Positions 1 to 45,453 of a stretch of DNA of 45,453 nt are shown here, one piece after another. This DNA is from a virus: IMG/VR virus record IMGVR_UViG_3300031555_001699, positions 1-45,453 of that record. One strand, given 5' to 3'. Made by a program: the position numbers and the translations under genes. The number at the start of each line of letters is the position of its first letter. Position 1 is the first letter of the stretch. Below the pieces are notes generated by a model. The model was given only the letters and a program-made list of their open reading frames with translations. It was not told the origin of the DNA and ran no database searches.

Positions 1-127
1 ACGAGGCGACAGCGCCCGACCTGATGGATCAGGCCTATGAGGCGTGGCGGCAGATCGTCCCGCGGAGCAGCACTGTCAGCGAGGCCTACAGGCGCGCACC
101 TGACAACGCAACCAAGAATGCATTGCT
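1..127. repeat. Terminal overlap copy 1 (identical to 45327-45453); circular-assembly closure, unique genome length 45,326 bp
   Basis: Both window ends read base by base: acgaggcgacagcgcccgacctgatgg...accaagaatgcattgct occurs at 1-127 and 45327-45453. It lies inside one continuous ORF, so it is assembly overlap, not a biological terminal repeat. Confidence 0.95.
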
Positions 128-19395: not shown

Positions 19396-22300
19396 ATGGC
19401 TGTCCAGAAAAAGAAAAATGAAACGCGTGATGAGGTGCTTTCGAGAGTTTCGAAAGAGTACAATATCACGCCTAAGGCTTCTAAGGCATCTACGAAGGGT
19501 ACTATAATAGCATCTTCCGTTGGTTCTGAACGTACCTATAAAAAGGCAGGCAGCAAGAGCCAGCAGCAGGAAAACAACAAAAACATTGCCCAGAGTGTTG
19601 CGCAGAAGTATAACGCTACCAGAAAGAATACTGGCAAGTGGTATTCTGGGAATACCCCTACGGCGCGAGAGACCATGGCTCGCATGTTTGAAAGGGCAAA
19701 CGGCGATACTGGTTTCTTCAACAAGATGAATGAAATGTTTGCTGCCGAGCAACAGGATCGCGGTTCCGTAATTTACAACCCCTACGCGCAGGCGACCAAC
19801 TACAAGGCGATCGACGGCCTGCGTCAGCTGGGCGTGGAAGTGCCGGAAACCATCTCTGATGAATGGATCGACAGCATGTGGCGGCAGTACGGCCAGTATT
19901 CCCGTGAGACGACCACTGGCTATGGCCCCGGCGCCCCGACCAAGGCTTCTACGGTACAGAACGACATCGCTTACTGGGTGAACACCCTGATGGAGGATAA
20001 GGAAGCCACCAACCTGGCCGAGACTCAGATGCAGGACATGTACACCGAGGTAGAGTACCTGGCCAAGCAGGGTTATAACGATGATGAGATCCTGAAGCGC
20101 GTGAAAGCGAACAAGGATTACAATGCGCTGTGGAAGATGGACGAAGCACGCCTCGCCGGCGATGCTGTGCGCCTGAACCGCAAGGTGAACTACAGCGGCG
20201 ACGACACGATCTACGGCATGATCTGGGCTGCACGCAATGACGGCGGCACCGGCGATTACTTTGTCGATTCCGTGAAGGCGCTGATGGGCCATGGCAACCA
20301 GTATAAGTACGACTCTGCCAGCGCTGCAGCGCTCGACCCGAGCAATTACGAGGGATATTCTCCGTATGTCCGCGGCACCATGCATGAAATGAACATGAAG
20401 TATGGTGTTGACAGCTTCGACCAGACTTGGCTGGAAGCGAACCGCAGCATGCTGAGTGACCCTGAGAAGGCAGAGGACTGGCGCAACATCAAGGAAGCTG
20501 TTGAGCGTTCCGAGTCTGCGGAGAAAGAACTGGCTGCACTGGATCAGTGGCTGGAAAAGCAGATTGCCAGCGGCAGGAAGGATGCACAGAGCCTGGCGGA
20601 TGAACTGACCGCGATGATCAGCGACGGCGACGAGATCCGCTACACTGACGCAGACGGCAAGATGGAAACCATCAAGCTGAGCACGCTGGCCAAGATGGAG
20701 GATTACCGCGCTGACGGCACGTATGTGAACCTGGGCTACGGCGTGGACTTCAACCTGCCGCAGTACATCGCCAAGGCGACCGCCATGTACGACGAGCATG
20801 CAACCGCAGCAGCGGAAACTGAAGCAGAGACCGGTGGCGGTGTGTTCAAGGCTATCGGCGACGGCATCGCAAGCGCCTGGAGATGGCTGACCGGTGACAA
20901 GGGCGCGATGGAGGACGTGATTGACGCCCAGAAGACCGGCGACGTTACGGAGTTTGCGAGCATTGAGGACGCGGCCAGAAAGTACGCCAAGGATATGTTC
21001 GGCGTGGACATCACCGGCGAGCTGCCGGCGCATGTGGAAGCAGCGCTGAAGGATGCGATCGCCAAGGCCAACAAGGCGGACCTGCCCGGCGCCAGCAAGG
21101 AAGATATCGATGCTGCGAACACGGCAGCTGGTGTACTGCAGGATATGTTCAGCGAGGTTATCGCCAACCCGGACATGAGAGCGCAGGAGACCGCAGAGGC
21201 TCCGGCGGAGGAGCCGGCGGAAGCCAACTACAAGGCTCAGCAGGCGTACACCACCGTATTTGAGAAGCAGCCGGAAGAGCCGCGCGAGGGCATGGTGGAG
21301 ATGGTGGCAGAGCCGACGGCATACACCGCAGGCGCTGCAGAACCTGCAGAAGCGAGCCCCGCTGCGGCAAGCTATGAGAGCATGCTGCAGGGCGGCGAGT
21401 GGGACAACGATGCGTTCGTATGGGCGCTCAATGAAAGTTCCAGCCCGAAAGCGATCAAAGCCGAGCTCGGCCAGGCGATCATTGACCACAGAGCCAAGGG
21501 TACTGAGCTTACCGGCCTGGCGAAGAGCTGGTGGAATAAGTTCGGTGGCCTGGTGGACGACATCGGCGGCCCGACGGACTATAACCAGCTGGTTCGATAC
21601 GAGATGGGCTTGGACGAGTACGACAGCCGCAAGGCTTACGGTACGCAGGTGTTCGATCTGCTTCAGGCGAACAGCGAGGCGTATGATTCTTCTGCGATCG
21701 ATGCTGCATCGTGGGCAAACAACCTGATTACCATCTCCGGCATGGCAGAAGCCATCAACAGAGCTGCCGGCGGCGAGCGCGCTACGGACGAGGTTGCCGA
21801 TCGATTCCTGGCCCAGAGTGGCCTGCAGGCAACGGTTGACGGCATGCTCAATACCATTGAGGGCAGCATGGAACGCCAAGCTGCTGACAAGGCTGAGGAG
21901 AATCGCCAGCGTACGACTGCGAGCGTGGGTGTGATCCAGCGTATGAACAGCGGCACGATGACCGAGGATGATTTACTGGCATACGTGGATATCATGAGCA
22001 CGGACATCAGTAAGACCGCTGCGCAGGATAAGACCTATGCTGCTGCCAACGCATACATCATCGATGCGCTGAGTTTTGATAGCATTGCCGAGAGCGGCAT
22101 GCGCTTTACTTATGGCGACAAGGCTGTTGACGCGTCCTACGGCAAGGAGATGGTCCTGAATGAAGGCGCATCCATCTACAGCACGGGCGTTACTGCACTG
22201 GCACAGGACACCCTGAACACGCATATGAAGTACGCCGCTGCATGCGGCATGACGCTGGAACAGTTTTATACCCAGTTCCCGGATCTGGCACGGACGCCTG

Positions 22301-25300
22301 AACAGATCGTAGCGGAAGCGCGCAGCGAGTATAACGGCACCTGGACCGAGTTCGGCCATACGATCGACGGCCTGATAGCTGCCAACGACAGCATCTTCAA
22401 CGCCGGTGAGGGCGCAGGCGCTCCCGGGGATGAAAAGGAAGATGTGCTGAGCTTCAGCGACAGCCTGGTGCTCGCGTTCGACAAGCTCCGGGCGACTAAT
22501 GCGCTGAACTGGGACAAGACGCTCTACATGATGCAGTACGCCTGGCGTGACGAAGAGATGGAGCAGGGCATACTGCTCGATCAGTACGGTGGCCGCACTG
22601 CGCTGGCTGCTGAGTGGGACAAGTTTGATGCTGAGCGCGAAGAGCAGCTGCGCAAGACCTACGAGAACGATATCACTGCCAAGCAGAGTGGCATCAGCTA
22701 CGAGGACTGGCGGCTGGAGAACACCGACAAGCAGCTGGACGAGGTGCGCGCCAAGCGCGAGACTGCAACGGATATCCTGGAGCTGGGCGATCCGGCAAGG
22801 CTGCGCGCAGAGCAGGGTATCATTGAGAAGACCGGCAATGTAGCGAACATCGATAAGCTGGTAGCCGAGTACGGCAGCGAGTTTGACAAGGCTGTCTACG
22901 ATGGTGCGACCAGCCTGATGCAGACTGGCCAGTTTATGTTCATTAGCACTGTGCTGGGCGGCGGATACATGGCTTCCCTGGCTGCAACGCTGACCAGCTC
23001 CGGCAGCGACGCATACGACCGATTCATCCAGACCGGCGACTATGACGCAGCCCTGGCAAGCAGCATCGGTGCATGGCTCGTGAACGCGGCTATTGAGAAG
23101 ATGAGCTTCGAGAGGTACATGCCTGAGAGCCTTGGCGGTAGCCGCACGCAGAAGATGCAGGCAGTGCAGAGCATGCTGCAGCGCGAGGGCATGTATAGTA
23201 TGCTCAAAGATCCGAAGAAGCTGTCCAAGGCAGCAACGGCTGTGATGGAGGCAATCGCCACTGCCGGCGTGAACAGCGCCAGTGAAGGTCTGGAGGAGAC
23301 CCTGCAGTACATTGTGGACTCTTTTGCGGACAACATTGCATACGGCGACAATATCTGGCTGACCGATGAGCAGGTATCCGGCATTGATGATACCTTCGTA
23401 GCGGGTACTGCAATGGGCGCAGTGCTCGATGTGGGCACCAACCTGGTGTTTGGTCGTCCGAAGTTCACTGACGAGCTGGGCAACGCGATCTCTAAGGCCG
23501 AAGCACAGATACGTCCCGAACACGATGGTGTTCTGCTGAACGAGGCGATCAAGTTTGAGGCGACGAGCATGGCGTATGTGAACAGCACAGACGCACTCGC
23601 CCAGATTGAGAGCAGCAGCGAGAACGCCGCCAAGCAGCAGGCGGAGCAGGAGCTGCAGGCTGTTGAAGCTGAATTGCAGGAAACGGAAGCAAAACTTGCA
23701 AGCGTGCAGGCGGAACATGATACCGCTATCATGGCGCTGGAAGATGTGAACGTAGAGATGCAGGACAGCGATGCGTTTACCGAGGACATGGGCAAGCGCA
23801 TGACCGCAGCAGCGACCGAGGTTGACCGAACCACGGCTGAGCTCAGAAAGGTCAAGGACGACCTGAGCAGCGCACAGGGCCGCAGGGAAGCCGCCCAGCA
23901 GAAGCTAGACGATGCGACCGCCAAGGTTCAGGCGATGTACGATCAGGTGATGGACGAGGCCAAGCAGAAGTACACCCAGATTGTGACCGACAAGTACTAC
24001 GCAGGCGACAGCGACGAACAGCGCGCCGCCGGCGAGGCGTACCAGGCAGCCTGCGCGAATCTGGAAGAAGCAAAGGCCGCACTGGCTACAGTGAAAGCTG
24101 ATGAGAATGCCGGTGCGAAGGAGCGCGGCAGGGCACTGCTGGATGTGGATAAGGCGACCGAGGCTGTGGAAGCAGCCAAGGCTGAGATGGATGCGGCATA
24201 CGCCCAGAGCCCGGAGGGCAAGGTGGAAGCTGCGACCAATAAGGCGCTGGAGGATGCGCAGAAAGCAGCGGACGATGCAGCGGCAGCAGCAGAGGCTGAC
24301 CCGATGAACAGCCGCAAGCAGCTGGCAGCAGAGCATGCACAGGCGCAGCTGGATGTGATCCGAGCCAAGCAGGAGATGGAAGAGAAGCGCTCCGGCATCA
24401 GCTTCCGCCTGAAGAGCCCGGATAGCAGCGAGCGCGAGGCAGCCGTTGGCGAGTGGAAGGCTGCCCAGCAGAAGGTAACCGATGCTGAAGAGCATGCCAA
24501 GGCCGTCGAGACCGAGTTCAACGAGACGGACACCCAGAAGAACCTGCAGACCGCGATCGACAACATGAAGCAGTACACCAACGAGCAGCTGTTGTTTGAG
24601 AGCGAGGAGGGGCACGAGGATGCTGTACGGGCCTATGCTGAACTGCAGGTGGCGCAGGCTGCAGCAGAAGTTGAAAATGCCTGGAATGGCATGTTGAAGG
24701 ACGGAGCCAGTGGACTGTCCGCTTACCAAGATGCAAGAAATAAGTATAATTCTGCTATTGACAATAAAAATGCCATGAATTATACTAAAAATGGGGAGGT
24801 ATATGATTATGGCAATGAAAGCGAAGGAATATATGGCGAAAATGTACGCGGAACATCCGGAATTGCCGGAGATGGTAGCGGAAGTAGAACGACTGTACGG
24901 GGCTCGGATTCAGTTCCCCTGTATGGTGATCGAGGCATTGCTCGACGGAATGACGCCGGCGGAAGTGGCAGCGGACAGCGCGTTGATGGATCTGTAAGGT
25001 ATGCGTCTACGGCGGGTATTACAGATGTAACTGCAACACCCGAGGAATATATTCAAGCATTGGATGCAGCAAAGGCAGCGCCCCCGGAAGACGGTCATCA
25101 GGTAAGCCCGCATAAGGTAGAAGAAGTGATGCGGGGAGATCTGCGTCCGTTCCTGACCAGCGATAAACTTGCAGGCTTCGCTGTAGAAGCCAATGGCAAC
25201 ATTACTGGTGTTTTTAGGAACCCCAAGAGTAAACTGGGCCCAGTAATGGACGATATGATGCTTTCTGCGATTCAAGAAGGTGGCAATCGATTGGATTGTT

Positions 25301-28300
25301 ATGCCGGTGACCTGTTTAACGATGGACTCAATAACAAAGACCGCATCGGCCCCCTCGTGAACAAGTATGCAAAGTATGGATTTAAGCCCGTGGCGGTTGT
25401 GAAATACAATGCTGAATACGCAGAAAGTGACAAGGTGCAGGATGTTATATTTTTCATCCATAACGGCAAGAGTGTAATGGAAATTAAGGCCGACCTTGAG
25501 GCGGGTGACTATGAACAGTACACGCCTGATGACCTGCTTGCGCTTAAAACGTTTGGATTGGATGACCCCGATGCTTACGACAATGCAGCCAAATACCGCG
25601 ATGGTTTGATTGAACAGCACAATTCTGACATCCAGGCCTGGCGAAATATCGGCGACGGCTTCGGTGATCACCGTACCCCCGGCAGGACCGGAGAGACCAC
25701 CACTGCTGACCGCAACCCGATCGAGATCCTGAGCGATCTGACCAGGCGGATCGGCGTGGGCTATAACCCCGGCGGCGACATGAGCACGAACGGCAGACGC
25801 TTGCCGCGTGCAGTGCAGGGCTTCTACAGCCGACATGCACGGGCGATCACGACCAGAGGCGCGAACGCCGGAGACCTGGAGGTCGGCCTGCATGAGTTTG
25901 GACATGCTGTACAGCAGCGACTGCCGAACCTGCATGCCAACACGCAGCTGTTGAACGGCCTGAGCCAGGGCGTGCGCAATGCATACGACCAGCAGGAGCT
26001 GGACGGCGAAGCGATCGCTGAGTTCGTGGTAGACTACATCTTCAACCGCGACGAGGCGGTGCGCCAGGCAGGCGCTCAGTTCGTGCAGGACTTCGAGGAC
26101 ATGCTGGCCAACGACCGCACGTTGTATGATGCAATCATGGACGCCAGCCACCAGACCGAGCTCTGGAACAACGCAGACACCGGCAGCAAGATCGGCGCCA
26201 TGACGAAGGACGGCAACGACCCGCGCCGCGGCCAGATCGGCAACTGGCTCTCCCGCACGCTGCGCAACGTGGAAACCGCCGTTGCGGACCTGACCGCGCC
26301 GGCAGACCTGGTGAGCAGGGACTTCCGCAGGAGAGCACTGTACAGTATGCACGCAAGCCGCAGGGCAGACGTGAGCCTGACCCGGTTCCTGATCGACCCG
26401 CAGGGCCGGAACATCGGCCAGAGCCTTGCAGAACGATTCTATCGCGCAGGCGTGACAGAGGGCGACCAGGCTGAGGTGAGCCGCTACGCGCTGGCCAAGC
26501 ATGCACTTGACCGCCGTGCGCAGAACAGGGACGTATTCACCGAGGCTGAGTTTCCGACCGCAGAACTGGAAGCATACGTTGCTGATATAGAGGCGAACCA
26601 CCAGAACATCGTGGCCGGCGCAAACGCACTGACCAGCTTCTGGAACGACTTCATGGATGCATGGTGGGTCGGCACCGGCATGATTGACGCAGAGGATGTG
26701 GCGACCATGCGCGCGATGTACCCGCATTACGTGCCCACGTTCCGCGTGATGGGCGAGAACTTCAACCAGTACGGCGGCGGCAACGCCCGCTTCCAGATGC
26801 GCAGAGCCGTAGTGGGCGGCAGCAGCCTGGAAGTGATCGATCCGATCGCCAGCATCGTAAAGATGACCCAGCAGATGACCAGCACGGTTACTCAGAACCA
26901 GCTGATGCGCGAGTTCCACGAAGAGTGGCGGCGCGGCGGCCTGGGCGACATCGCTGAGGACGTGACCCAGCAATATCGCGTGCAGCGTAACGACACAACC
27001 AACATGCAGGCAGCTCTGGACGCGATCGCAGCGACCGGCATGGTTGATCCTGCGCTGATGGGCGACGCCTATGCACAGATGCTGAATCTGCAGGAGCACT
27101 GGTATGGAACCGGACAGAACTACGATGCGAACGTTGTAAGCGGCGTAGACGAGAACGGCAACCGCTTCTTCTACAAGATCAAGGACAGAGGCCTGTACAA
27201 CCTGCTGAGCGGCGCGGCAAACAGGAGCGGCGACATGGGCGCAATCCTGCGGACCGTGCGCAACATCAAGAATGGCTTCACGAAAATGACCACCGGCAGC
27301 AACCCGCTGTTCGCGCTCAAGAACCTGCAGCGCGATATCCAGGCCAGCGTGAATACCGGCACGCACAGCATGACCTACGCAGACGGCATATATCACTGGG
27401 CACGCGCCTTCTATGAAGTGCTGACCGGCAGTGAAACCTACCGCGACTGGCAGGCGATGGGCGGCGGCGAGCACACCCGCTTCAATACTGAGCTGAACGG
27501 CCAGGAAGCAGGCAGAGTGGTGCGCGAACTGAGCAGAGATCTGATGCGCGGCAGGGAGAACCGCAGAGGCAACTTCCAAACCCGGAACACGGCACTGGAG
27601 AACATCAGCAATGTTCTGACCTGGGAAGAACTGAACAATGCCATTGAAAACGCCAGCAGATATGTGGAGTACCGCTTCGGTAGGCATGACCTGAACACCG
27701 ATGAAGGCCGCAGAGAGGCATTCATGGCCAGCCAGGATGTGACCACAAATTTCGGCACTCACGGCGCAAGCGGCGTAATCAAGGTGCTCAATCAGGTGGT
27801 TCCCTTCATGAACGCCACCATCCAGGGCCTGAATAAGGACGCGAACATCATCCGCGACGTATTTAGCACTGATGCGAACAGGCGCAGACAGGCAGCGCCG
27901 AAGGCTGCCAAGACCATGATGAACACTGCCCTGACCGCCATGCTGCAGTACGCACTGCTGAAGATGTTCGGCAGCAACGAGGACGACGAGGACTACGCAC
28001 TGCTGAGCCAGGAGATGCGCACCGGCAACCTGATCATCCCGATCGGCAAGGGCGCAATGGAGGAACTGGGCGACGTGATCGGATTCGACAAGCCCTACAT
28101 CCGTATCCCGATCGCGCAGGTCCCGCTGGCGCAGGGCATGTATGCCAAGGCACTGGATATCGTATCCGACGTGGCGAACTACAGCCCGATGGAAGTTGAC
28201 ATGTGGCGCGCAACGAAGAGCATCCTTGCTGACAGCATACCGGACGGCACTGTGTTCCAGGCGATCAGCGATGCAGCCAACAACCGCACCTGGTACGGCG

Positions 28301-28968
28301 GCGAGATCGAGAGCGAGTACATGCGCAACTACAGCGTGACCAACCGCTACGACAGCGATACTCCGAATGCGATCATCCAGCTCGGCCAGAGCCTGAATGT
28401 ATCCCCGGCCAAGCTGGACTACCTGCTGAACCAGTACAGCGGCTTCGCCGGCAAGATTTTGATGCCGCTGATCAGTGCTGGCAGACTGGATGGCGAGTAC
28501 AGCTTGCGCAATGCGGGTGAGAACCTGGTCTACAACGTACTGAAGAATTACACGATCGACCCGGTGAGCAGCAACGACCTGAGCACCAGCTACAGTTCCG
28601 CCAAGGATACGATCAGCCAGATCGTAGCTGACGGCAAGGCAGGCAAGCCGATGGGTAACCTGGCCTACAGCGCTGACCCGGAAGAGGCTTACGACGCTGC
28701 CGAGTACCTGAGCAAAGAGTTCGCCGCCCTAGACAAGGAAATCTCCGCACTGTGGAGCGAGTACAACGCCATCAAGGAAAGCGACCTGAGCGACGGCGAC
28801 AAGGCCAGGCAGATGCGCGACCTGCGCAGGAACTACATTGTGCCCCTCCAGCAGGATGCGATGGCGCTGTATGAGGAGTATAAGATGCAGTACATCGATG
28901 CTGACTCGCTGGCGCTGGAGATCTATGGCCGGCTGCCTGGCGGCCTAACCAGACCCACTCTCGACTAA
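19396..28968 (+). CDS. Giant 3,190-aa polyvalent-type protein (probable virion-packaged/ejected multi-domain effector)
   Basis: Single uninterrupted ORF with SD GGGAGGG. Segments: basic N-terminus; Gly-rich hydrophobic segment (nt about 22930-23000); Ala/Glu/Lys coiled coil of about 380 aa (nt about 23600-24720); G/S/R linker; acetyltransferase-like segment (nt about 25140-25470); zincin motif GLHEFGHAV (HEFGH = nt 25891-25905); about 1,000-aa C-terminal domain. Confidence 0.85.
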   Translation: MAVQKKKNETRDEVLSRVSKEYNITPKASKASTKGTIIASSVGSERTYKKAGSKSQQQENNKNIAQSVAQKYNATRKNTGKWYSGNTPTARETMARMFERANGDTGFFNKMNEMFAAEQQDRGSVIYNPYAQATNYKAIDGLRQLGVEVPETISDEWIDSMWRQYGQYSRETTTGYGPGAPTKASTVQNDIAYWVNTLMEDKEATNLAETQMQDMYTEVEYLAKQGYNDDEILKRVKANKDYNALWKMDEARLAGDAVRLNRKVNYSGDDTIYGMIWAARNDGGTGDYFVDSVKALMGHGNQYKYDSASAAALDPSNYEGYSPYVRGTMHEMNMKYGVDSFDQTWLEANRSMLSDPEKAEDWRNIKEAVERSESAEKELAALDQWLEKQIASGRKDAQSLADELTAMISDGDEIRYTDADGKMETIKLSTLAKMEDYRADGTYVNLGYGVDFNLPQYIAKATAMYDEHATAAAETEAETGGGVFKAIGDGIASAWRWLTGDKGAMEDVIDAQKTGDVTEFASIEDAARKYAKDMFGVDITGELPAHVEAALKDAIAKANKADLPGASKEDIDAANTAAGVLQDMFSEVIANPDMRAQETAEAPAEEPAEANYKAQQAYTTVFEKQPEEPREGMVEMVAEPTAYTAGAAEPAEASPAAASYESMLQGGEWDNDAFVWALNESSSPKAIKAELGQAIIDHRAKGTELTGLAKSWWNKFGGLVDDIGGPTDYNQLVRYEMGLDEYDSRKAYGTQVFDLLQANSEAYDSSAIDAASWANNLITISGMAEAINRAAGGERATDEVADRFLAQSGLQATVDGMLNTIEGSMERQAADKAEENRQRTTASVGVIQRMNSGTMTEDDLLAYVDIMSTDISKTAAQDKTYAAANAYIIDALSFDSIAESGMRFTYGDKAVDASYGKEMVLNEGASIYSTGVTALAQDTLNTHMKYAAACGMTLEQFYTQFPDLARTPEQIVAEARSEYNGTWTEFGHTIDGLIAANDSIFNAGEGAGAPGDEKEDVLSFSDSLVLAFDKLRATNALNWDKTLYMMQYAWRDEEMEQGILLDQYGGRTALAAEWDKFDAEREEQLRKTYENDITAKQSGISYEDWRLENTDKQLDEVRAKRETATDILELGDPARLRAEQGIIEKTGNVANIDKLVAEYGSEFDKAVYDGATSLMQTGQFMFISTVLGGGYMASLAATLTSSGSDAYDRFIQTGDYDAALASSIGAWLVNAAIEKMSFERYMPESLGGSRTQKMQAVQSMLQREGMYSMLKDPKKLSKAATAVMEAIATAGVNSASEGLEETLQYIVDSFADNIAYGDNIWLTDEQVSGIDDTFVAGTAMGAVLDVGTNLVFGRPKFTDELGNAISKAEAQIRPEHDGVLLNEAIKFEATSMAYVNSTDALAQIESSSENAAKQQAEQELQAVEAELQETEAKLASVQAEHDTAIMALEDVNVEMQDSDAFTEDMGKRMTAAATEVDRTTAELRKVKDDLSSAQGRREAAQQKLDDATAKVQAMYDQVMDEAKQKYTQIVTDKYYAGDSDEQRAAGEAYQAACANLEEAKAALATVKADENAGAKERGRALLDVDKATEAVEAAKAEMDAAYAQSPEGKVEAATNKALEDAQKAADDAAAAAEADPMNSRKQLAAEHAQAQLDVIRAKQEMEEKRSGISFRLKSPDSSEREAAVGEWKAAQQKVTDAEEHAKAVETEFNETDTQKNLQTAIDNMKQYTNEQLLFESEEGHEDAVRAYAELQVAQAAAEVENAWNGMLKDGASGLSAYQDARNKYNSAIDNKNAMNYTKNGEVYDYGNESEGIYGENVRGTSGIAGDGSGSRTTVRGSDSVPLYGDRGIARRNDAGGSGSGQRVDGSVRYASTAGITDVTATPEEYIQALDAAKAAPPEDGHQVSPHKVEEVMRGDLRPFLTSDKLAGFAVEANGNITGVFRNPKSKLGPVMDDMMLSAIQEGGNRLDCYAGDLFNDGLNNKDRIGPLVNKYAKYGFKPVAVVKYNAEYAESDKVQDVIFFIHNGKSVMEIKADLEAGDYEQYTPDDLLALKTFGLDDPDAYDNAAKYRDGLIEQHNSDIQAWRNIGDGFGDHRTPGRTGETTTADRNPIEILSDLTRRIGVGYNPGGDMSTNGRRLPRAVQGFYSRHARAITTRGANAGDLEVGLHEFGHAVQQRLPNLHANTQLLNGLSQGVRNAYDQQELDGEAIAEFVVDYIFNRDEAVRQAGAQFVQDFEDMLANDRTLYDAIMDASHQTELWNNADTGSKIGAMTKDGNDPRRGQIGNWLSRTLRNVETAVADLTAPADLVSRDFRRRALYSMHASRRADVSLTRFLIDPQGRNIGQSLAERFYRAGVTEGDQAEVSRYALAKHALDRRAQNRDVFTEAEFPTAELEAYVADIEANHQNIVAGANALTSFWNDFMDAWWVGTGMIDAEDVATMRAMYPHYVPTFRVMGENFNQYGGGNARFQMRRAVVGGSSLEVIDPIASIVKMTQQMTSTVTQNQLMREFHEEWRRGGLGDIAEDVTQQYRVQRNDTTNMQAALDAIAATGMVDPALMGDAYAQMLNLQEHWYGTGQNYDANVVSGVDENGNRFFYKIKDRGLYNLLSGAANRSGDMGAILRTVRNIKNGFTKMTTGSNPLFALKNLQRDIQASVNTGTHSMTYADGIYHWARAFYEVLTGSETYRDWQAMGGGEHTRFNTELNGQEAGRVVRELSRDLMRGRENRRGNFQTRNTALENISNVLTWEELNNAIENASRYVEYRFGRHDLNTDEGRREAFMASQDVTTNFGTHGASGVIKVLNQVVPFMNATIQGLNKDANIIRDVFSTDANRRRQAAPKAAKTMMNTALTAMLQYALLKMFGSNEDDEDYALLSQEMRTGNLIIPIGKGAMEELGDVIGFDKPYIRIPIAQVPLAQGMYAKALDIVSDVANYSPMEVDMWRATKSILADSIPDGTVFQAISDAANNRTWYGGEIESEYMRNYSVTNRYDSDTPNAIIQLGQSLNVSPAKLDYLLNQYSGFAGKILMPLISAGRLDGEYSLRNAGENLVYNVLKNYTIDPVSSNDLSTSYSSAKDTISQIVADGKAGKPMGNLAYSADPEEAYDAAEYLSKEFAALDKEISALWSEYNAIKESDLSDGDKARQMRDLRRNYIVPLQQDAMALYEEYKMQYIDADSLALEIYGRLPGGLTRPTLD
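24791..24997 (+). CDS. Embedded +1-frame ORF (60-68 aa) inside the giant gene; possible overlapping gene or relic
   Basis: GGGGAGG 24793-24799 precedes ATG 24803/24809/24815; product MAMKAKEYMAKMYAEHPELPEMVAEVERLYGARIQFPCMVIEALLDGMTPAEVAADSALMDL has ordinary composition. Hand-counted GC3 is 66 percent in this frame versus 35 percent in the giant-ORF frame over the same bases. Confidence 0.3.
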   Translation: MGRYMIMAMKAKEYMAKMYAEHPELPEMVAEVERLYGARIQFPCMVIEALLDGMTPAEVAADSALMDL

Positions 28969-34632: not shown

Positions 34633-35196
34633 CTACCTTCCTTGTTCGTATTCCTTGAGGATTTCCAAAAGCTCCATATCATCCGCTTCCAGTATCTGGT
34701 CCAGCTTCATCTGCAATGCCGAACGCTTCTTAATCAGTTCGAAGAAATGTTCATCTTCTGCGCAGGCATCCATACCGTTGTTATGGATCATGAGCTGGAC
34801 GGATTCATCAACATCGCACAGCTGGTTGGCGAGGTCTGCACGCAAGGCATCCCTGCGGCGATGCAGCGCCGAGACCAGATGCCGAGCGTTGACGGTGATG
34901 GTATCGGGGTTATAGTCTTCAACGGCTATGCCGAAATCATTAGCACATCTATGTGCAGCATCCAACGGCTCCATGCCGAGGATATCCTGATACAACCTGA
35001 CTGCATCGCCACCGCGATGGCAGCCATAGCAGTACCAGCCGCGGTCAGCTGACAGGAACAGCGACGGATGCCCGCGCTCGCCGTGGATAGGGCAGAGCGC
35101 CCAGGCGACGGTTCCTGTGGTTTTGCGCAGCGGAATGCCGAGCATCACTGCCGCATCCACGCAGCTGACCGACCGGCAATCATCAAAGACGCTCAT
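34633..35196 (-). CDS. CHC2 (DnaG-type) zinc-finger protein without a recognisable TOPRIM/catalytic domain
   Basis: CPIHGERGHPSLFLSADRGWYCYGCHRGGDAV = C-x-H-x17-C-x2-C; 187 aa only. Confidence 0.75.
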   Translation of the reverse strand: MSVFDDCRSVSCVDAAVMLGIPLRKTTGTVAWALCPIHGERGHPSLFLSADRGWYCYGCHRGGDAVRLYQDILGMEPLDAAHRCANDFGIAVEDYNPDTITVNARHLVSALHRRRDALRADLANQLCDVDESVQLMIHNNGMDACAEDEHFFELIKKRSALQMKLDQILEADDMELLEILKEYEQGR

Positions 35197-35825
35197 CAGT
35201 CGATGCGATCCCAGGTGAAGGTTCCATAGGAACCATTGCGGAACTGGCCGAGGCCGCTGAGCTCGCCATAGTCCAGGGCCTTCTCGACGGTCTCCCAGCT
35301 AAGCTCGGTGGACTTAGCGGAGCGATCATTGGCGATCAGGCGCAGTTCAATTTCAACGGTCCAGGGCGTATCCACGCACTCAGATGCCTGCAGACCAACA
35401 CGCGGGCCTTTGGGCGTATCAGCGCGCAGGGGGCGCTCGTACTGGCTGTCCTCATCATAGATCGAGTCGCCATCGCGCATCAGCGGGATGCGGCGGGGGA
35501 ACACGAACAGGTACTTATCCACCTTGGACTTATAGGACTTGACGCCCAGCTGCTTCTGCAGTGCGCCCAGGGCAGCCTTGAAGAAGCCGCGGACCATGTA
35601 ATCCAGGATGATGAGGCGATCATCATTATCGGGGTCGCGGGCGAACACGGACAGGCCGCGGGTTTCGCGCTCGCTGGCATCGAAGAGATCGCGCTCTTCT
35701 TCGGAGAGTATGACGTCCGGGGCCTTGGATGCCACGAACTGAGTTCTGATGGCCTCGGATGCCGGCTGGCTGCCGAGGATCGGAGTCAAACCAGTTAAAC
35801 GATACTTACGAGATTCATACAACAT
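35196..35825 (-). CDS. Hypothetical 209-aa protein
   Basis: ATG 35825 after GAAGGAGGAAAC within ORF 35196-35867; no family recognised. Confidence 0.65.
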   Translation of the reverse strand: MLYESRKYRLTGLTPILGSQPASEAIRTQFVASKAPDVILSEEERDLFDASERETRGLSVFARDPDNDDRLIILDYMVRGFFKAALGALQKQLGVKSYKSKVDKYLFVFPRRIPLMRDGDSIYDEDSQYERPLRADTPKGPRVGLQASECVDTPWTVEIELRLIANDRSAKSTELSWETVEKALDYGELSGLGQFRNGSYGTFTWDRID

Positions 35826-35867
35826 TTTTGTTTCCTCCTTCAAATTGAAAATTGCTTCACGTTGCAT

Positions 35868-36423
35868 TGCCTAGACGCGCCATAACAAAGAAGCACAATG
35901 CATCACCTTAGCGCTACCACACTTAACAAAGCCATTGCGGTGCTTGGCAAAACCACACCGTCACACCACTTGACAAAGCCACTACTTCACGTCTCTCCGC
36001 TTCACGTCTCTCCGCTTTACGTCACCATCGCATTGCTTTTCATTACTAAACCCTGCCAACGCTTAACATTGCAATACCATCGCTTGACACTGCAGTACCT
36101 TGCTTTACCCATGCTGCGCAATGCATTACAGTACTTTACCCAAGCAGCGCAATACAGGACACTACTTTGCCTCCGCGTCACATGGCCCTACTTGGCAATA
36201 CCTTGGCAATACACAACAGTACCATCACACAACTATACGATTCAATGCCATTACGGTACGAAGCGCTACGAAACCGTGCATTTCATTACCTCAACGCAGC
36301 AGCGCCGGGCATTACCCTTGCCTTACTCTGCCGTACCAAGCCCTACCTATACTTTGCTACGCATCGGAACACTATAGCTTCGCTATACCCAGCGCCACAC
36401 CTCTATGCATTACCGCTGCGGTT
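35868..36423. repeat. Non-coding G-poor (plus strand) array of helically phased TACC/GGTA motifs with embedded exact tandem duplications
   Basis: Hand count for 35881-36420: C 184, G 83, A 145, T 128. TAC(C) starts are mostly 10-11 or 20-21 bp apart. TTCACGTCTCTCCGC x2 at 35986-36015; CTTGGCAATAC x2 at 36191-36212. No SD-led ORF on either strand. Confidence 0.75.
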
Positions 36424-36453
36424 GCTATCCGTGCCGTGCATGGCACGGATAGC
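36424..36453 (-). promoter_or_regulatory. Perfect 12-bp-stem hairpin 16 nt downstream of the stop of the 249-aa gene
   Basis: GCTATCCGTGCC (36424-36435) / GGCACGGATAGC (36442-36453), 6-nt loop; no U tract on the minus strand, so a processing/stability element or protein site rather than a classical terminator. Confidence 0.5.
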
Positions 36454-36468
36454 TTGGACCTTCTCAAA

Positions 36469-37218
36469 TTATTCGGACATGAATTCTGCCGGGATCTGGT
36501 CATCGGACAGGGGAGTGAACGCAGCCTTGGTGGCTTCCTTGAGGTTATCAGCCATGGCCAGCAGCGATACGCGGGCCTCATCCGGGACAGCGCCGACGCA
36601 TTCGAACGTGGGTACGGAGTAGCGGGTGCCGGTCTGGTTGGTTTCAACCTTCAGGCCGATGCGGGTGATGACCTGGTTGGGACGCATAGGACGCTGGCCC
36701 TTCTTGCGGGGGATCAGCAGGTTGTCCACATACTTCTCATAGGGCTTATTGCCGGTAGGCGCCAGATCGATGCGGATGGGCAGCATATCACCCTCGCGCA
36801 GGACGTAGACGCGGCGACCGTTCTTGCAGGCCTTGCCGGCGCCATCGGAGCCGAACTTATTGTGCCGACAGGAGCTGCAATCATGGTAAGCGCCGGACTG
36901 GTCCACGCCGGTTACGCCGTCCATGCTGCGACAGTCGGGCTGACCGCCGCCTACACCAGAATCCAGCTTGTTGGCCCACCAGGCATAGTTCTTATGCGCA
37001 TGCAGGATAACACCCTCGATCACCTTGGCGGTCTCCGGGTCGGTATCATCCTCAGATGCCATGATATCCCATGCGGTGCGAGCGGAGGACGGAGTTTTTG
37101 CGAAGGCGAAGTCCGGGCGATAGTCTGCGCCGAGCTCGGCCTTAAGAGCATCCATGATCTGTGCGGACTCAGTGATAGCGGACAGGTCGTAGGACTGGAC
37201 AACAGCGATTTCATTCAT
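36469..37218 (-). CDS. Hypothetical 249-aa protein with a Cys4 cluster
   Basis: ORF track; SD GGAGG 9 nt upstream; CRSMDG...CSSCRHNKFGSDGAGKACKN looks zinc-binding. Confidence 0.7.
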   Translation of the reverse strand: MNEIAVVQSYDLSAITESAQIMDALKAELGADYRPDFAFAKTPSSARTAWDIMASEDDTDPETAKVIEGVILHAHKNYAWWANKLDSGVGGGQPDCRSMDGVTGVDQSGAYHDCSSCRHNKFGSDGAGKACKNGRRVYVLREGDMLPIRIDLAPTGNKPYEKYVDNLLIPRKKGQRPMRPNQVITRIGLKVETNQTGTRYSVPTFECVGAVPDEARVSLLAMADNLKEATKAAFTPLSDDQIPAEFMSE

Positions 37219-37555
37219 GGGCGATAGCCTCCTTGATCTTTTTTTCTGCCTCTTCGGCAGTTTCCCACAGGCCGGCGCGGATGCCGATCTGCACTGCTGC
37301 GTCGCTGCGCAGCTGCGATGCCTTGATGTTGCCGCGCAGCACGCCAGTCAGGAAATTAATGACCTCATTGGCTTGCACGGGCATCTGCCGGCGGCGTTCT
37401 TCCAGGTATGCCTGGACAGCGGGCTGGCGCTTTACACCCTGAGCGTAGGTATACTTGAAGCCGGCCTGAGTAGCTGCCTCGGGTGCATTGCCGAGCTCGA
37501 GATACAGGTCAACGAACTTGCGCTGACGATCAGTGAGTTTCTTGGTATTCTCCAT
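37211..37555 (-). CDS. Terminase small subunit-like protein (Terminase_2-type N-terminal HTH), 114 aa, located in the early/replication operon
   Basis: KKLTDRQRKFVDLYLELGNAPEAATQAGFKYTYAQGVKRQPAVQAYLEERRRQ matches the LT.KQ.kF...Y...gNa..AA..AGY pattern of Terminase_2 TerS. Confidence 0.55.
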   Translation of the reverse strand: MENTKKLTDRQRKFVDLYLELGNAPEAATQAGFKYTYAQGVKRQPAVQAYLEERRRQMPVQANEVINFLTGVLRGNIKASQLRSDAAVQIGIRAGLWETAEEAEKKIKEAIAHE

Positions 37556-44029: not shown

Positions 44030-45453
44030 ATGGATATTTACGCAGACTACCTGCGCAAGTCCCGGTCAGATGAGCAGGCCGAGGCCCGCGGCGAGGGCGA
44101 TGTACTGGCCCGGCACCGCAAGACGCTGCAGGAGCTGGCCGCCTACAACGGGCACATGCTCGTTGCCGAATACGCCGAAGTCGCCAGCGGCGACAGCCTC
44201 GCAGCCAGGCCGGAGGCGCAACGCCTGCTGCTGGATGTGATGGCAGGCAAGTATACCGGCGTTTACTGTATGGCCCTTGACCGACTCAGCCGCGGCGCTG
44301 CAGAGGATCAGGCCGCCGTGATCCGGGCCTTCCAGGCCTCCGGCACACTGCTGATTACGCCCGAGAAGGTCTATGACTTCACCAACGCCGCCGACGAGGA
44401 TTTCGGCGAGCTGCGCCTGATGTTCAGCCGCATTGAGCACAAGACCATCAAGCGCCGCATGTACGCAGGCCGCGAGCGCTCCGCCCGTGATGGCTGGTAT
44501 ATCGGCGCGCGCATCCCGTTCGGATACGCCAAGGTACCCGCCCAGGGCAAGGACGGCCCCACGCTTAAGATCATCCCCGAGCAGGCTGAGCTCGTCCGCG
44601 CCATGTTCGAGGCCTACGCCGACGGCAAGAGCTCGCACCATATCGCCGACATGCTCAACGCGCAGCCCGTCAAGCCCAACTACAGCGACACCTGGACACC
44701 GTCCACTATCCGCAACATTCTCCGCAATCCGCTGTACATCGGCAAAATCTCCTGGGGCAAGCGCATCTCCAGACCGGCCCCCGACGGCAGCGCACACCGC
44801 GTCGTCAACAGCCGCGCTATCCTGGCCGACGGCAGGCATGAGCCCATCATCACTCAGGCCCTGTGGGACGCTGTGCAGGCCCGCCTTGAGCGCAACCCTG
44901 CACCGACCATCTCTGAGGGCCTCCAGAATCCCCTACAAGGGCTTGTGCGCTGCGGCCTATGCGGTTGTCTAATGCAGCGCAGCCCGGCCCAGAAGAGCCC
45001 TTCTGGGCGCTCTCAGCCCGCAATACTCAAATGCACTACGCATGGATGCAAGCAAATCCGGTCTGATCTAGCTGTGATCGAGGATATGATCCTGCAGAGC
45101 ATGGATGCATGCTATGGCCATGAAGGCGAGCTTTCCCCGGTGCAGATCCAGCAGCGCAAAGACCGCCAGAAGGCTGCCAAGCTGATCTTTGACCAGATCA
45201 AGCAGGCAGAAGCGCAGCAGAGCCGCCAGGCGGACTTATTAGAACAGGGTGTGTACACGGTCGAGGATTTTATCAGCCGCAGAAACGCGCTGTCTGAGAG
45301 GCTCAGAGAGCTTCACAGACGCTACGACGAGGCGACAGCGCCCGACCTGATGGATCAGGCCTATGAGGCGTGGCGGCAGATCGTCCCGCGGAGCAGCACT
45401 GTCAGCGAGGCCTACAGGCGCGCACCTGACAACGCAACCAAGAATGCATTGCT
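44030..45453 (+). CDS. int: Large serine recombinase (integrase), N-terminal 474 codons; open at the window end and continues at 1-236
   Basis: ATG 44030 seven nt after GAAGGGAGG. Hand translation MDIYADYLRKSRSDEQ...ALDRLSRG (resolvase catalytic domain), GWYIGARIPFGY recombinase domain, Cys cluster CGLCGCLMQR...LKCTTHGC zinc ribbon, C-terminal coiled coil. Not in the ORF track because no stop is reached. Confidence 0.92.
   Translation, partial: MDIYADYLRKSRSDEQAEARGEGDVLARHRKTLQELAAYNGHMLVAEYAEVASGDSLAARPEAQRLLLDVMAGKYTGVYCMALDRLSRGAAEDQAAVIRAFQASGTLLITPEKVYDFTNAADEDFGELRLMFSRIEHKTIKRRMYAGRERSARDGWYIGARIPFGYAKVPAQGKDGPTLKIIPEQAELVRAMFEAYADGKSSHHIADMLNAQPVKPNYSDTWTPSTIRNILRNPLYIGKISWGKRISRPAPDGSAHRVVNSRAILADGRHEPIITQALWDAVQARLERNPAPTISEGLQNPLQGLVRCGLCGCLMQRSPAQKSPSGRSQPAILKCTTHGCKQIRSDLAVIEDMILQSMDACYGHEGELSPVQIQQRKDRQKAAKLIFDQIKQAEAQQSRQADLLEQGVYTVEDFISRRNALSERLRELHRRYDEATAPDLMDQAYEAWRQIVPRSSTVSEAYRRAPDNATKNAL
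45327..45453. repeat. Terminal overlap copy 2 (identical to 1-127)
   Basis: See copy 1. Confidence 0.95.

What the first reader, a model, noticed from the sequence alone, without database searches (positions are those of the whole stretch)
35826..36468. 640-bp non-coding island inside the replication operon: extreme G-poor strand skew plus about 10.5-bp phased TACC/GGTA motif array
There is no SD-led ORF on either strand between the start of the 209-aa gene (35825) and the stop of the 249-aa gene (36469).

- Coding potential: the transcribed (minus) strand is littered with stops (GTAATG, GGTAAAG, GTGA recur). All three plus-strand frames stay open for more than 200 bp only because G is scarce.
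- Composition: my hand count for 35881-36420 is C 184, G 83, A 145, T 128. That gives a GC skew of about -0.38 and GC of about 49 percent, visibly below the flanking genes.
- Phasing: TAC(C) starts at 36075, 36096, 36106, 36127, 36137, 36153, 36163, 36189, 36199, 36210, 36220, 36236, 36257, 36267, 36287, 36313, 36324, 36334 and 36344. The spacings are mostly 10-11, 20-21 or 26 bp, so the motif recurs on one face of the helix.
- Exact tandem duplications: TTCACGTCTCTCCGC x2 (35986-36015) and CTTGGCAATAC x2 (36191-36212).
- Degenerate repeats: about 31-nt units (minus strand GGGTAAAG..TACTG..) around 36090-36145.
- A perfect 12-bp-stem hairpin (36424-36453) caps the island.

Helical phasing next to the helicase/zinc-finger genes suggests a protein-wrapped DNA element, meaning an origin/iteron field or another nucleoprotein scaffold. 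Because it is co-transcribed with the early operon, a long GU-rich structured or protein-sponging RNA is an equally open possibility. I do not recognise it as any named element.
Basis: partly seen in the sequence, partly recalled or inferred. Interest (0 to 1): 0.78.

Follow-up and report, generated by a model that had tools for sequence, protein, structure and literature searches.

The report
Phage VIPR guide-RNA repeat array
The "non-coding island" is the guide-RNA array of a VIPR system, a phage-encoded, CRISPR-like RNA-guided DNA-silencing system first described in 2026, and the 209-aa gene next to it encodes the Cas7-like protein that coats that RNA; it is a new member of a known family, with unusually long arrays that follow a strict 5.18-nt spacing.

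Summary
The periodicity is mis-measured: it is 5.18 nt, not 10.5 bp. On the strand of the flanking genes the island is about 110 head-to-tail units, GYNNN or GYNNNG. G occupies 97-98% of the lattice positions.

The 209-aa gene directly downstream folds as a Cas7/Csm3-type RAMP. It is homologous over its full length to the experimentally characterised Vipr protein of phage SUSP1.

Among 117 loci encoding relatives, 101 carry such an array next to the gene. In 100 of the 101 the periodic G is on the gene's sense strand. The arrays lie upstream in 45 loci and downstream in 54. The period is 5.17 ± 0.035 nt.

This is a VIPR locus (bioRxiv 10.64898/2026.04.26.720920 and .720927): Vipr protomers coat a pentanucleotide-repeat RNA and present the variable bases to silence competing phages. 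The origin/iteron reading is not supported. The "protein-bound RNA" alternative was close.

This clade departs from the published type II architecture:
- The repeat lacks the first G.
- The tracts are uninterrupted, about 50-250 units long.
- One extra G is inserted every 5-6 units, giving a strict non-integer lattice.

I found no targets.

The parts
35851..36423 (-). vrRNA repeat tract: about 110 contiguous units, GYNNN (about 80%) or GYNNNG (about 20%), read on the minus strand.
   Evidence: A dynamic-programming parse gives 111 anchors, 98% of them G, with steps of 5 nt (x90) or 6 nt (x20). Its score is 103, against 47 (maximum 63.5) in Markov-shuffled nulls. Unit composition is G 97%, Y 90%, then three variable bases.
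35196..35825 (-). vipr gene: a 209-aa single-RRM RAMP (Cas7-like) protein with the G-loop GLGQFRNGSYGTF.
   Evidence: The AF2 model has pLDDT 85 and pTM 0.79. Foldseek against the PDB gives 107 hits at E<=1e-3, and the leading hits are Csm3 and type VII Cas7 backbone subunits. The best BFVD hit is 'Cas system-associated RAMP superfamily protein'. hhalign against SUSP1 Vipr gives probability 85-94% and E 6e-6 to 3e-8.
35833..35840 (-). Shine-Dalgarno sequence AAGGAGGA of vipr. The repeats run to within about 10 nt of it.
   Evidence: Read directly from the sequence.
35864..35881 (-). 3'-terminal motif GGCGCGTCTAGGCAATGC. It is conserved among close relatives while the rest of the array differs, so it is a candidate short vrRNA tail or processing signal.
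   Evidence: Alignment A3 of six arrays whose Vipr proteins are 68-86% identical. No supported consensus structure. The motif is not found across the wider family.
36424..36453 (.). Near-perfect 15+15-nt palindrome between the stop codon of the upstream 249-aa gene and the first repeats. It marks the 5' boundary of the array.
   Evidence: It has no T-run, so it does not score as an intrinsic terminator. L001 and L002 also carry a hairpin at this position, with a different sequence.
35985..36023 (.). Recent tandem duplication of a 3-unit (15-nt) block. Others are a 2-unit (11-nt) block at 36191-36212, a 4-unit (21-nt) block at 36056-36099 and a 6-unit (31-nt) block at 36103-36168.
   Evidence: TRF and the repeat finder. 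Every duplicated length is a whole number of units.

Best explanation
The island and the 209-aa gene together form a VIPR (Viral Interference Programmable Repeat) locus in a complete, roughly 45-kb gut phage genome.

Inferred mechanism, by homology to the published SUSP1 and P. fulva systems:
1. The island is transcribed on the minus strand with the early operon.
2. Vipr protomers polymerise along the RNA, one per repeat, each gripping the conserved G-Y.
3. The variable bases are left exposed to pair, in a gapped register, with double-stranded DNA of a competing phage, prophage or satellite.
4. The bound filament blocks transcription of that target.

What is shown here: the repeat anatomy, the protein fold, the homology to a validated Vipr, and the obligatory same-strand linkage of array and gene across about 100 loci.

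What is inferred: transcription, RNA processing, filament formation, the pairing rule and the targets.

This clade differs from the characterised type II systems in three ways:
- The repeat is xGYNN, not GGYNN.
- The tracts are uninterrupted and 48-246 units long.
- An extra G every 5-6 units places all anchors on a 5.175-nt lattice.

The 5-6 unit block size equals the number of Vipr subunits per filament turn reported for SUSP1. I therefore suggest, as a hypothesis only, that either the extra nucleotide is a once-per-turn register correction in very long filaments, or the 26/31-nt blocks are individual short guides.
For: Repeat anatomy:
- Period 5.18 nt with constant phase.
- 111 anchors, 98% G, with residual sd 0.34 nt around a 5.175-nt lattice. 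None of 2000 step-order shuffles is as coherent.

Protein:
- RAMP/Cas7 fold.
- Weak sequence hits to the Csm4 and type VII Cas7 G-loops.
- The profile aligns over its full length to SUSP1 gp039. I confirmed that gp039 is the published Vipr: 13 of the 14 residues named in 10.64898/2026.04.26.720927 sit at the stated positions.
- The G-loop residues that contact G2 and Y3 are kept (W178 becomes F/W; R179 stays R). The G1 contacts are changed or absent (D177 becomes Q; H17 lies in a segment missing here). This matches a repeat without G1 (inference from the alignment).

Linkage:
- 101 of 117 related loci have an array. In 100 the periodic G is on the gene's sense strand.
- 45 arrays are upstream and 54 downstream. 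The period is 5.174 +/- 0.035 nt.

Variability:
- Close relatives keep the G lattice while the N positions differ.

Literature:
- VIPR is defined as a phage-encoded ~20-kDa RAMP plus vrRNAs of tandem pentanucleotide repeats.
- Alternative repeat consensuses (NNNGG, YNNNG, NNNNG), staggered arrays and stand-alone vipr genes are all described.
Against: - No expression or processing data exist for this locus.
- No sigma-70-like promoter or intrinsic terminator is found in or beside the island.
- No structured 3' tail like the SUSP1 pseudoknot was found.
- No conserved accessory (vap) gene: the best neighbour cluster occurs in 16 of 118 loci.
- No target was found. A local gapped k-mer search gave 100 real hits against 111 in order-shuffled controls under the 1-nt-skip rule. 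Two 18-base gapped patterns scanned against IMG/VR gave one hit that does not extend, and none.
- The pairing rule for a repeat with three variable bases is unknown.
Confidence: 0.9

Rival explanations
1. Replication origin or iteron field: a double-stranded DNA array wrapped by an initiator encoded nearby.
For: The island lies inside the replication module, between an SNF2 helicase, DUF7307, an HTH protein and a 249-aa protein on one side, and a CHC2 zinc-ribbon protein and an AAA_25 helicase on the other. Twice the period, 10.35, is close to the helical repeat of B-DNA.
Against: - There is no signal at 10-11 bp.
- The pattern is a single conserved G every 5.18 nt on one strand, not 17-22-bp iterons.
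- Orientation relative to vipr is fixed in 100 of 101 loci.
- The array follows vipr into phages with unrelated replication modules, or with none adjacent.
- The partner protein is an RNA-binding RAMP homologous to a validated Vipr.
Confidence: 0.03
2. A self-folding structured non-coding RNA or protein sponge unrelated to guide function, for example an anti-defence decoy that titrates host type III CRISPR Cas7/Csm subunits.
For: The RNA would be G/U-rich and repetitive. The partner resembles Csm3. RNA anti-CRISPRs that mimic repeats exist (my own knowledge, not tested here).
Against: - No Rfam family matches.
- The fold z-score is only -1.97, and most of that comes from the terminal palindrome.
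- C-poverty leaves little pairing potential.
- The period is 5.18 nt, not the 6 nt of Csm/Cascade backbones.
- The protein is homologous to Vipr specifically, and the variable positions are hypervariable between close relatives, as guides are.
Confidence: 0.05
3. A decayed pseudogene or a degenerate pentanucleotide microsatellite with no function.
For: The region has no ORF on the gene strand and contains recent tandem duplications.
Against: - One position per unit is kept at 94-98% G and the next at about 80-90% pyrimidine, while the other three drift.
- Neutral decay would erode all positions, and indels would destroy the lattice, yet residuals stay within 1 nt over 570 nt.
- The same architecture recurs in about 100 loci spanning many phyla.
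Confidence: 0.01

Closest known systems
VIPR type II systems (Escherichia phage SUSP1; Pseudomonas fulva prophage), bioRxiv 10.64898/2026.04.26.720920 and 10.64898/2026.04.26.720927
   Same: - A phage-encoded ~20-kDa single-RRM RAMP with a G-loop and thumb, homologous over its full length.
- An adjacent same-strand non-coding tract of tandem ~5-nt repeats with a conserved G-Y and hypervariable remaining bases.
- No cas genes and no CRISPR array.
- A position among phage early genes.
   Different: - SUSP1 has discrete ~100-nt vrRNAs of 9-16 exact GGYNN pentamers (period 5.01-5.02), each capped by a structured tail, plus a vap1 gene.
- Here the repeat is xGYNN, and about 110 units are contiguous with no interspersed tails.
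- Every 5th-6th unit carries an extra G, giving a 5.175-nt lattice.
- No conserved vap gene is evident.
- The G1-contact residues of SUSP1 Vipr are not conserved.
Other VIPR architectures mentioned in the same preprint (alternative YNNNG / NNNNG repeats; 'staggered arrays' whose vrRNAs overlap by 1 nt; stand-alone vipr genes)
   Same: The YNNNG consensus fits this array. A contiguous array whose successive blocks are offset by 1 nt may be what the authors call staggered.
   Different: The figures are not held in the library, so I could not check whether the 26/31-nt block structure and the non-integer lattice are what they describe. The text searched contains no mention of 6-nt units or of a non-integer period. 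The type (I-VII) cannot be assigned here.
Class 1 CRISPR backbone subunits (Csm3 of type III-A; Cas7 of type VII)
   Same: They are the best structural matches (E 5e-7, TM 0.45-0.55). They too polymerise along a guide RNA and flip out bases at a fixed interval.
   Different: - Their periodicity is 6 nt, and guide pairing is contiguous apart from every sixth base.
- They need a CRISPR repeat handle and partner Cas proteins (Cas5, Cas10 or Cas8, Cas11), and none of these is in this genome.
Plasmid and phage iteron origins, and phased protein-wrapped DNA arrays (e.g. P1 incA/incC; P2 Cox boxes; ParR-parC)
   Same: They are also tandem, phased repeats next to replication or partition genes. This comparison rests on my own knowledge.
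   Different: Those arrays are 10-22-bp double-stranded sites at multiples of about 10.5 bp, in small numbers. Here there is one conserved base every 5.18 nt on one strand, more than 100 times, tied to an RNA-binding protein.

Membership tests
VIPR | Vipr protein: a small (~20 kDa) RAMP with a single RRM core, a glycine-rich loop and a thumb | tested here: met
   The protein is 209 aa. The AF2 model has pLDDT 85. Foldseek gives 107 PDB hits at E<=1e-3, led by Csm3 and type VII Cas7. The G-loop is GLGQFRNGSYGTF, with G191, G193, Q194, R196 and G201 invariant or nearly invariant in the family.
VIPR | Sequence homology to an experimentally validated Vipr | tested here: met
   hhalign of the 116-sequence profile against SUSP1 gp039 gives probability 85% and E 6e-6 (local), and probability 93.7% and E 3e-8 (global). 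The alignment covers 176-179 columns. gp039 was verified as the published Vipr by 13 of 14 named residues.
VIPR | A non-coding tract adjacent to vipr, on the same strand, made of tandem pentanucleotide repeats with a conserved G(G)Y and variable bases | tested here: met
   for the window. Across related loci, 100 of 101 arrays are same-strand.
VIPR | Variable positions are hypervariable between close relatives while the G/Y positions are conserved | tested here: met
   In alignment A3 (Vipr proteins 68-86% identical), the invariant columns are almost all G at about 5-nt spacing.
VIPR | Phage or provirus context, with no CRISPR array and no other cas genes | tested here: met
   The genome is a complete phage genome with a 127-bp terminal overlap, a terminase and a P22-like portal. 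No Pfam or PHROG cas families appear in the neighbours. 80 relatives are in IMG/VR.
VIPR (type II architecture) | Discrete vrRNAs of 9-16 exact GGYNN repeats, each followed by an invariant structured 3' tail | tested here: not met
   There are about 110 contiguous units. The repeat lacks G1. The lattice is 5.175 nt. Only one short conserved 3' motif is present, with no supported structure. The SUSP1 control gives a period of 5.01-5.02 nt.
VIPR | An accessory vap gene in an operon with vipr | tested here: inconclusive
   No neighbour family is shared by more than 16 of 118 loci. The CHC2 zinc-ribbon gene overlaps the vipr stop codon by 1 nt, but only in close relatives. The preprint allows stand-alone vipr genes.
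VIPR | vrRNAs are expressed, processed and co-purify with Vipr | not testable with these tools
   This needs small-RNA sequencing and a pull-down.
VIPR | Natural DNA targets match the variable bases under the 1-nt-skip rule | tested here: inconclusive
   A local search over 1.7 Mb gave 100 real hits against 111 control hits. Two IMG/VR pattern scans gave one non-extending hit and none. The searches were underpowered, and the rule for this repeat type is unknown.
CRISPR-Cas class 1 (type III / VII) | A repeat-spacer CRISPR array, a multi-subunit effector (Cas5, Cas10 or Cas14, Cas11) and a 6-nt backbone periodicity | tested here: not met
   No direct repeat-spacer array is present. No other cas domains are found. 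The period is 5.18 nt.
Iteron-type replication origin | Several 17-22-bp direct repeats in helical phase, bound by an adjacent initiator, with an AT-rich unwinding element | tested here: not met
   There is no 10-11-bp periodicity. The only long repeats are unit-multiple duplications. GC stays at 45-54% with no AT-rich block. The array segregates with vipr, not with replication genes.

The most novel reading that the evidence does not exclude
In this large Vipr clade the guide is organised differently from the characterised type II systems. It is an uninterrupted tract of 50-250 units on a strict 5.175-nt lattice, with one extra G every 5-6 units, which is the number of Vipr subunits per filament turn. 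Each repeat has three rather than two free bases.

Two readings would follow:
- Very long continuous Vipr filaments with a once-per-turn register correction.
- Arrays of one-turn 26/31-nt mini-guides read with a different (possibly NNN) code.

The text of the two preprints available to me states neither.
Probability: 0.3. Interest if true: 0.7.

Novelty: new member of a known kind. Interest (0 to 1): 0.45.

Why it matters
VIPR was reported only in 2026, as a minimal RNA-guided DNA-recognition system proposed to predate CRISPR.

- **Distribution.** This locus shows a large branch of the family in gut and rumen Clostridia phages and in many other phyla. There were more than 380 protein homologs, and 101 arrays were examined.
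- **Detection.** A simple Fourier test at 5.18 nt finds these arrays where ORF callers, Rfam and tandem-repeat finders see nothing.
- **Mechanism.** The non-integer lattice, the loss of the first G, and the matching loss of the G1-contact residues give concrete handles on how Vipr filaments measure RNA and on whether the pairing code differs between clades.
- **Annotation.** Practically, it removes a false "origin of replication" call. It also explains why assemblies of these phages often break at this spot.

Tried and rejected
- **Rfam.** Searches at gathering and at permissive thresholds found only chance microRNA hits to the palindrome.
- **tRNA/tmRNA.** None found.
- **BLASTN** of the island and of the whole early region against GenBank phages gave no match.
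- **Close-relative scans** of IMG/VR with single flanking proteins found nothing. Relatives appeared only with the 5.8-billion-protein search and with a profile.
- **Ideas considered before the protein fold was known, then dropped:**
  - TRAP-like triplet-repeat binding
  - a Rho rut site on the plus strand (the conserved dinucleotide is RC, not YC)
  - an R-loop origin
  - a partition centromere
  - a primase-site array
  - telomere-like repeats
- **Structured 3' tail.** RNAalifold gives 5 pairs at -2.8 kcal/mol. No k-mer is shared by more than 20 of 97 array flanks apart from the Shine-Dalgarno sequence.
- **Conserved accessory gene.** None found.
- **Target search.** Seven pairing rules tested locally showed no enrichment over unit-order shuffles, apart from cross-hits between homologous arrays. 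Two 9-unit xNN patterns scanned in IMG/VR gave one chance-level hit whose flanks do not match. I then stopped, because exact-match scans are badly suited to a rule that tolerates about 20% mismatch.
- **JGI metagenome scan** for near relatives returned only two short contigs.

Full report
**Observation**

The island is real and its composition is as reported.
- Bases 35881-36420 hold C184, G83, A145 and T128. GC skew is -0.378, the most extreme value of any 540-bp stretch in the window and about 3.9 SD from the mean (profile).
- All the listed TAC positions exist.
- The tandem duplications of 15, 11 and 31 nt exist, plus one of 21 nt.
- The palindrome at 36424-36453 has 15-nt arms that are 93% complementary.
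- No plausible gene lies on the minus strand. The long plus-strand ORFs are a by-product of G-poverty.

The claimed 10.5-bp phasing is not supported.
- At 10-11 nt, TAC positions are no more periodic than random placements (p = 0.90).
- The true period is 5.18 nt. It is the dominant spectral peak (power 21-23) and is carried by C and T on the plus strand.
- Its phase stays within about 0.05 cycles across 35850-36450.
- In sliding 200-bp windows, no window outside the island and its edges comes close; the best elsewhere scores 3.3 against 7-12 inside.

**Anatomy**

Read on the minus strand, which is the strand of all flanking genes, the island is a head-to-tail series of about 110 units.
- About 80% of the units are GYNNN and about 20% are GYNNNG. 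Composition is G 97%, Y 90%, then three variable, A/U-rich bases. The sixth base is G in 83% of the long units.
- A chain of 111 anchors is 98% G. Its score is 103, against 47 (maximum 63.5) in first-order Markov shuffles.
- The anchors fit a lattice of 5.175 nt with residual sd 0.34 nt and a maximum residual of 0.92 nt over about 570 nt. None of 2000 shuffles of the order of the same 5- and 6-nt steps is as coherent. The 6-nt units are therefore placed regularly, not at random.
- The internal duplications are all whole numbers of units (2, 3, 4 and 6), which suggests growth by slippage of unit blocks.
- The repeats run from just after the palindrome to about 10 nt before the AAGGAGGA ribosome-binding site of the 209-aa gene.

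**The neighbouring gene is the partner**

- The 209-aa product (35196-35825, minus strand) has no Pfam, PHROG or NCBIfam match. It has more than 380 metagenomic homologs.
- With 116 of them as an alignment, AlphaFold2 gives pLDDT 85 and pTM 0.79.
- Foldseek finds 107 PDB chains at E<=1e-3. The top 47 are Csm3 (type III-A) and type VII Cas7 backbone subunits, and a type III-B Cmr subunit follows.
- The best viral hit is annotated "Cas system-associated RAMP superfamily protein".
- The C-terminal motif GLGQFRNGSYGTF is a RAMP glycine-rich loop. A profile search of PDB sequences hits the same loop in Csm4 and type VII Cas7, weakly (E about 0.05-0.06).

**The array and the gene travel together**

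- I first looked upstream of homologs in three unrelated contigs. One of them (L004) has a rolling-circle Rep/SSB module instead of the helicase/primase genes. Each has a non-coding gap with G every 5.18-5.20 nt on the gene's strand.
- More distant homologs have the array downstream instead.
- I then scanned 117 loci: 80 from IMG/VR, 31 from genomes of 30 GTDB species, and 6 of the loci fetched earlier. Of these, 101 have such an array beside the gene.
- In 100 of the 101 the periodic base is G on the sense strand; one has C.
- 45 arrays are upstream and 54 downstream. Lengths are 225-1225 nt. The best period is 5.174 +/- 0.035 nt.
- Several of the 16 negative loci are truncated at the relevant flank.
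- The hosts named for the genome hits are mostly Clostridia: Candidatus Limiplasma (70% identity), Oscillospiraceae and Christensenella. Hits also occur in Thermodesulfobacteriota, Planctomycetota, Patescibacteria, Omnitrophota, Anaerolineae and one Bathyarchaeota MAG.
- No other gene is consistently linked. The best neighbour cluster occurs in 16 of 118 loci.

**Identification**

A literature search found two 2026 preprints describing exactly this kind of module: VIPR, Viral Interference Programmable Repeat (10.64898/2026.04.26.720920 and 10.64898/2026.04.26.720927). According to them:
- Vipr is a phage-encoded ~20-kDa single-RRM RAMP.
- vrRNAs are tandem pentanucleotide repeats in which GGY is sequestered by the protein and the NN bases are hypervariable.
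- One protomer binds each repeat in a right-handed filament, with six subunits per turn when free and five when target-bound.
- The NN bases pair with double-stranded DNA while skipping every third target base.
- Natural targets are competing phages, prophages and satellites, which are transcriptionally silenced.
- Seven types exist. There are alternative repeat consensuses (NNNGG, YNNNG, NNNNG), staggered arrays, hammerhead-interspersed arrays, and vipr genes that stand alone.

I tested homology directly.
- The SUSP1 genome (NC_028808) has a two-gene cassette flanked by 450- and 530-bp gaps.
- Its 195-aa gp039 carries 13 of the 14 residues named in the structure paper at the stated positions, so it is the published Vipr.
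- The profile of my family aligns to it over 176-179 columns, with probability 85-94% and E 6e-6 to 3e-8.
- In the G-loop, SUSP1 has D177-W178-R179 and this family has Q-F/W-R. The residues reported to hold G2 and Y3 are kept. D177 is replaced, and H17 lies in a five-residue segment that this family lacks; both are reported to read G1.
- This agrees with a repeat that has lost the first G. It is an inference from an alignment at 21% identity.

**Differences from the characterised systems**

- SUSP1 repeat tracts are exact pentamers (period 5.01-5.02) of about 15 units, each followed by a tail.
- Arrays in this clade have a median of about 97 units (range 48-246) with no interspersed tails.
- Across 97 non-redundant arrays and about 10,000 units, 76% of steps are 5 nt and 21% are 6 nt.
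- The number of 5-nt units between successive 6-nt units peaks at 4-5. That accounts for 46% of cases, against 15% expected if 6-nt units were placed at random. The arrays are therefore built from 26- and 31-nt blocks.
- Five to six units per block equals the published subunits per filament turn. Whether that is causal is unknown.
- The text of the preprints available to me mentions neither 6-nt units nor a non-integer period. The "staggered arrays" of their fig. S18 might be the same thing, but I could not see the figure.
- Close relatives share a short 3' motif, GGCGYGTCTAGGYAAYGC (35864-35881), but it has no supported structure and is not family-wide.

**What remains inferred**

- Transcription, processing, filament assembly, the pairing rule and the targets are all inferred.
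- No promoter-like or terminator-like site is found in the island. This is compatible with read-through from the operon but proves nothing.
- Target searches were negative and underpowered.

**Verdict**

- The finding is a genuine, strongly non-random element. It is a VIPR guide array, not an origin.
- The family is already described, so this is a new member of a known kind.
- It has an architectural peculiarity, the 5.175-nt lattice, that may deserve follow-up.
- Confidence that it is a VIPR locus is about 0.9. Confidence in the specific silencing function in this phage is lower, about 0.7, because it rests on homology alone.

Noticed in passing
window 1-127 and 45327-45453: The first and last 127 bases are identical. 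The window is therefore a complete, circularly closing assembly of a ~45.3-kb phage genome (GC 56%), with a P22-like portal, a large terminase and a 3190-aa ORF (19396-28968) in the tail region.
   Followed up: partly
L124, L125, L126 (contigs encoding the 86%-identical Vipr): All three contigs begin inside the repeat array, 527, 421 and 257 nt upstream of vipr. Short-read assemblers seem to break at these arrays, which may hide many of them.
   Followed up: no
window 37211-37555 (-): A 114-aa protein matching the N-terminal DNA-binding part of small terminase subunits (PF03592) sits in the early/replication operon, two genes upstream of the array and far from the packaging genes. It may be a DNA-binding accessory protein, but its role is unknown.
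   Followed up: no
window 34633-35196 (-): The gene for a CHC2 zinc-ribbon protein (primase-type zinc finger without a recognisable catalytic domain) overlaps the vipr stop codon by one base. It is followed by an AAA_25 helicase gene. This trio is kept in the close relatives L001, L002 and L124-126 but not in distant ones. It could be a clade-specific accessory (vap-like) pair or just the replication module.
   Followed up: partly
L015 2351-2700: This is the only locus where the periodic base is C on the vipr strand, meaning the array is inverted. It lies 300 nt upstream of the gene. It may be a genuine inversion or may belong to another element.
   Followed up: no
L009 about 6850-7200: A strong exact 6.0-nt periodicity (power 17) lies inside the 237-aa gene two genes downstream of vipr. 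It is probably a dipeptide-repeat coding region and unrelated to the 5.18-nt arrays.
   Followed up: no
L107 and L108 (JAGCAN010000001.1, 22-29 kb and 70-77 kb): One Oscillospiraceae MAG contig carries two vipr-plus-array modules with identical scan results, about 48 kb apart. They may be two related prophages, a duplication or an assembly artefact.
   Followed up: no
L001 about 4760-4800, L002 about 4300-4330, window 36424-36453: In all three relatives a strong hairpin of unrelated sequence lies between the upstream gene's stop codon and the first repeat. None has a U-tract. It may be a conserved-by-position 5' boundary or processing element of the array transcript.
   Followed up: partly
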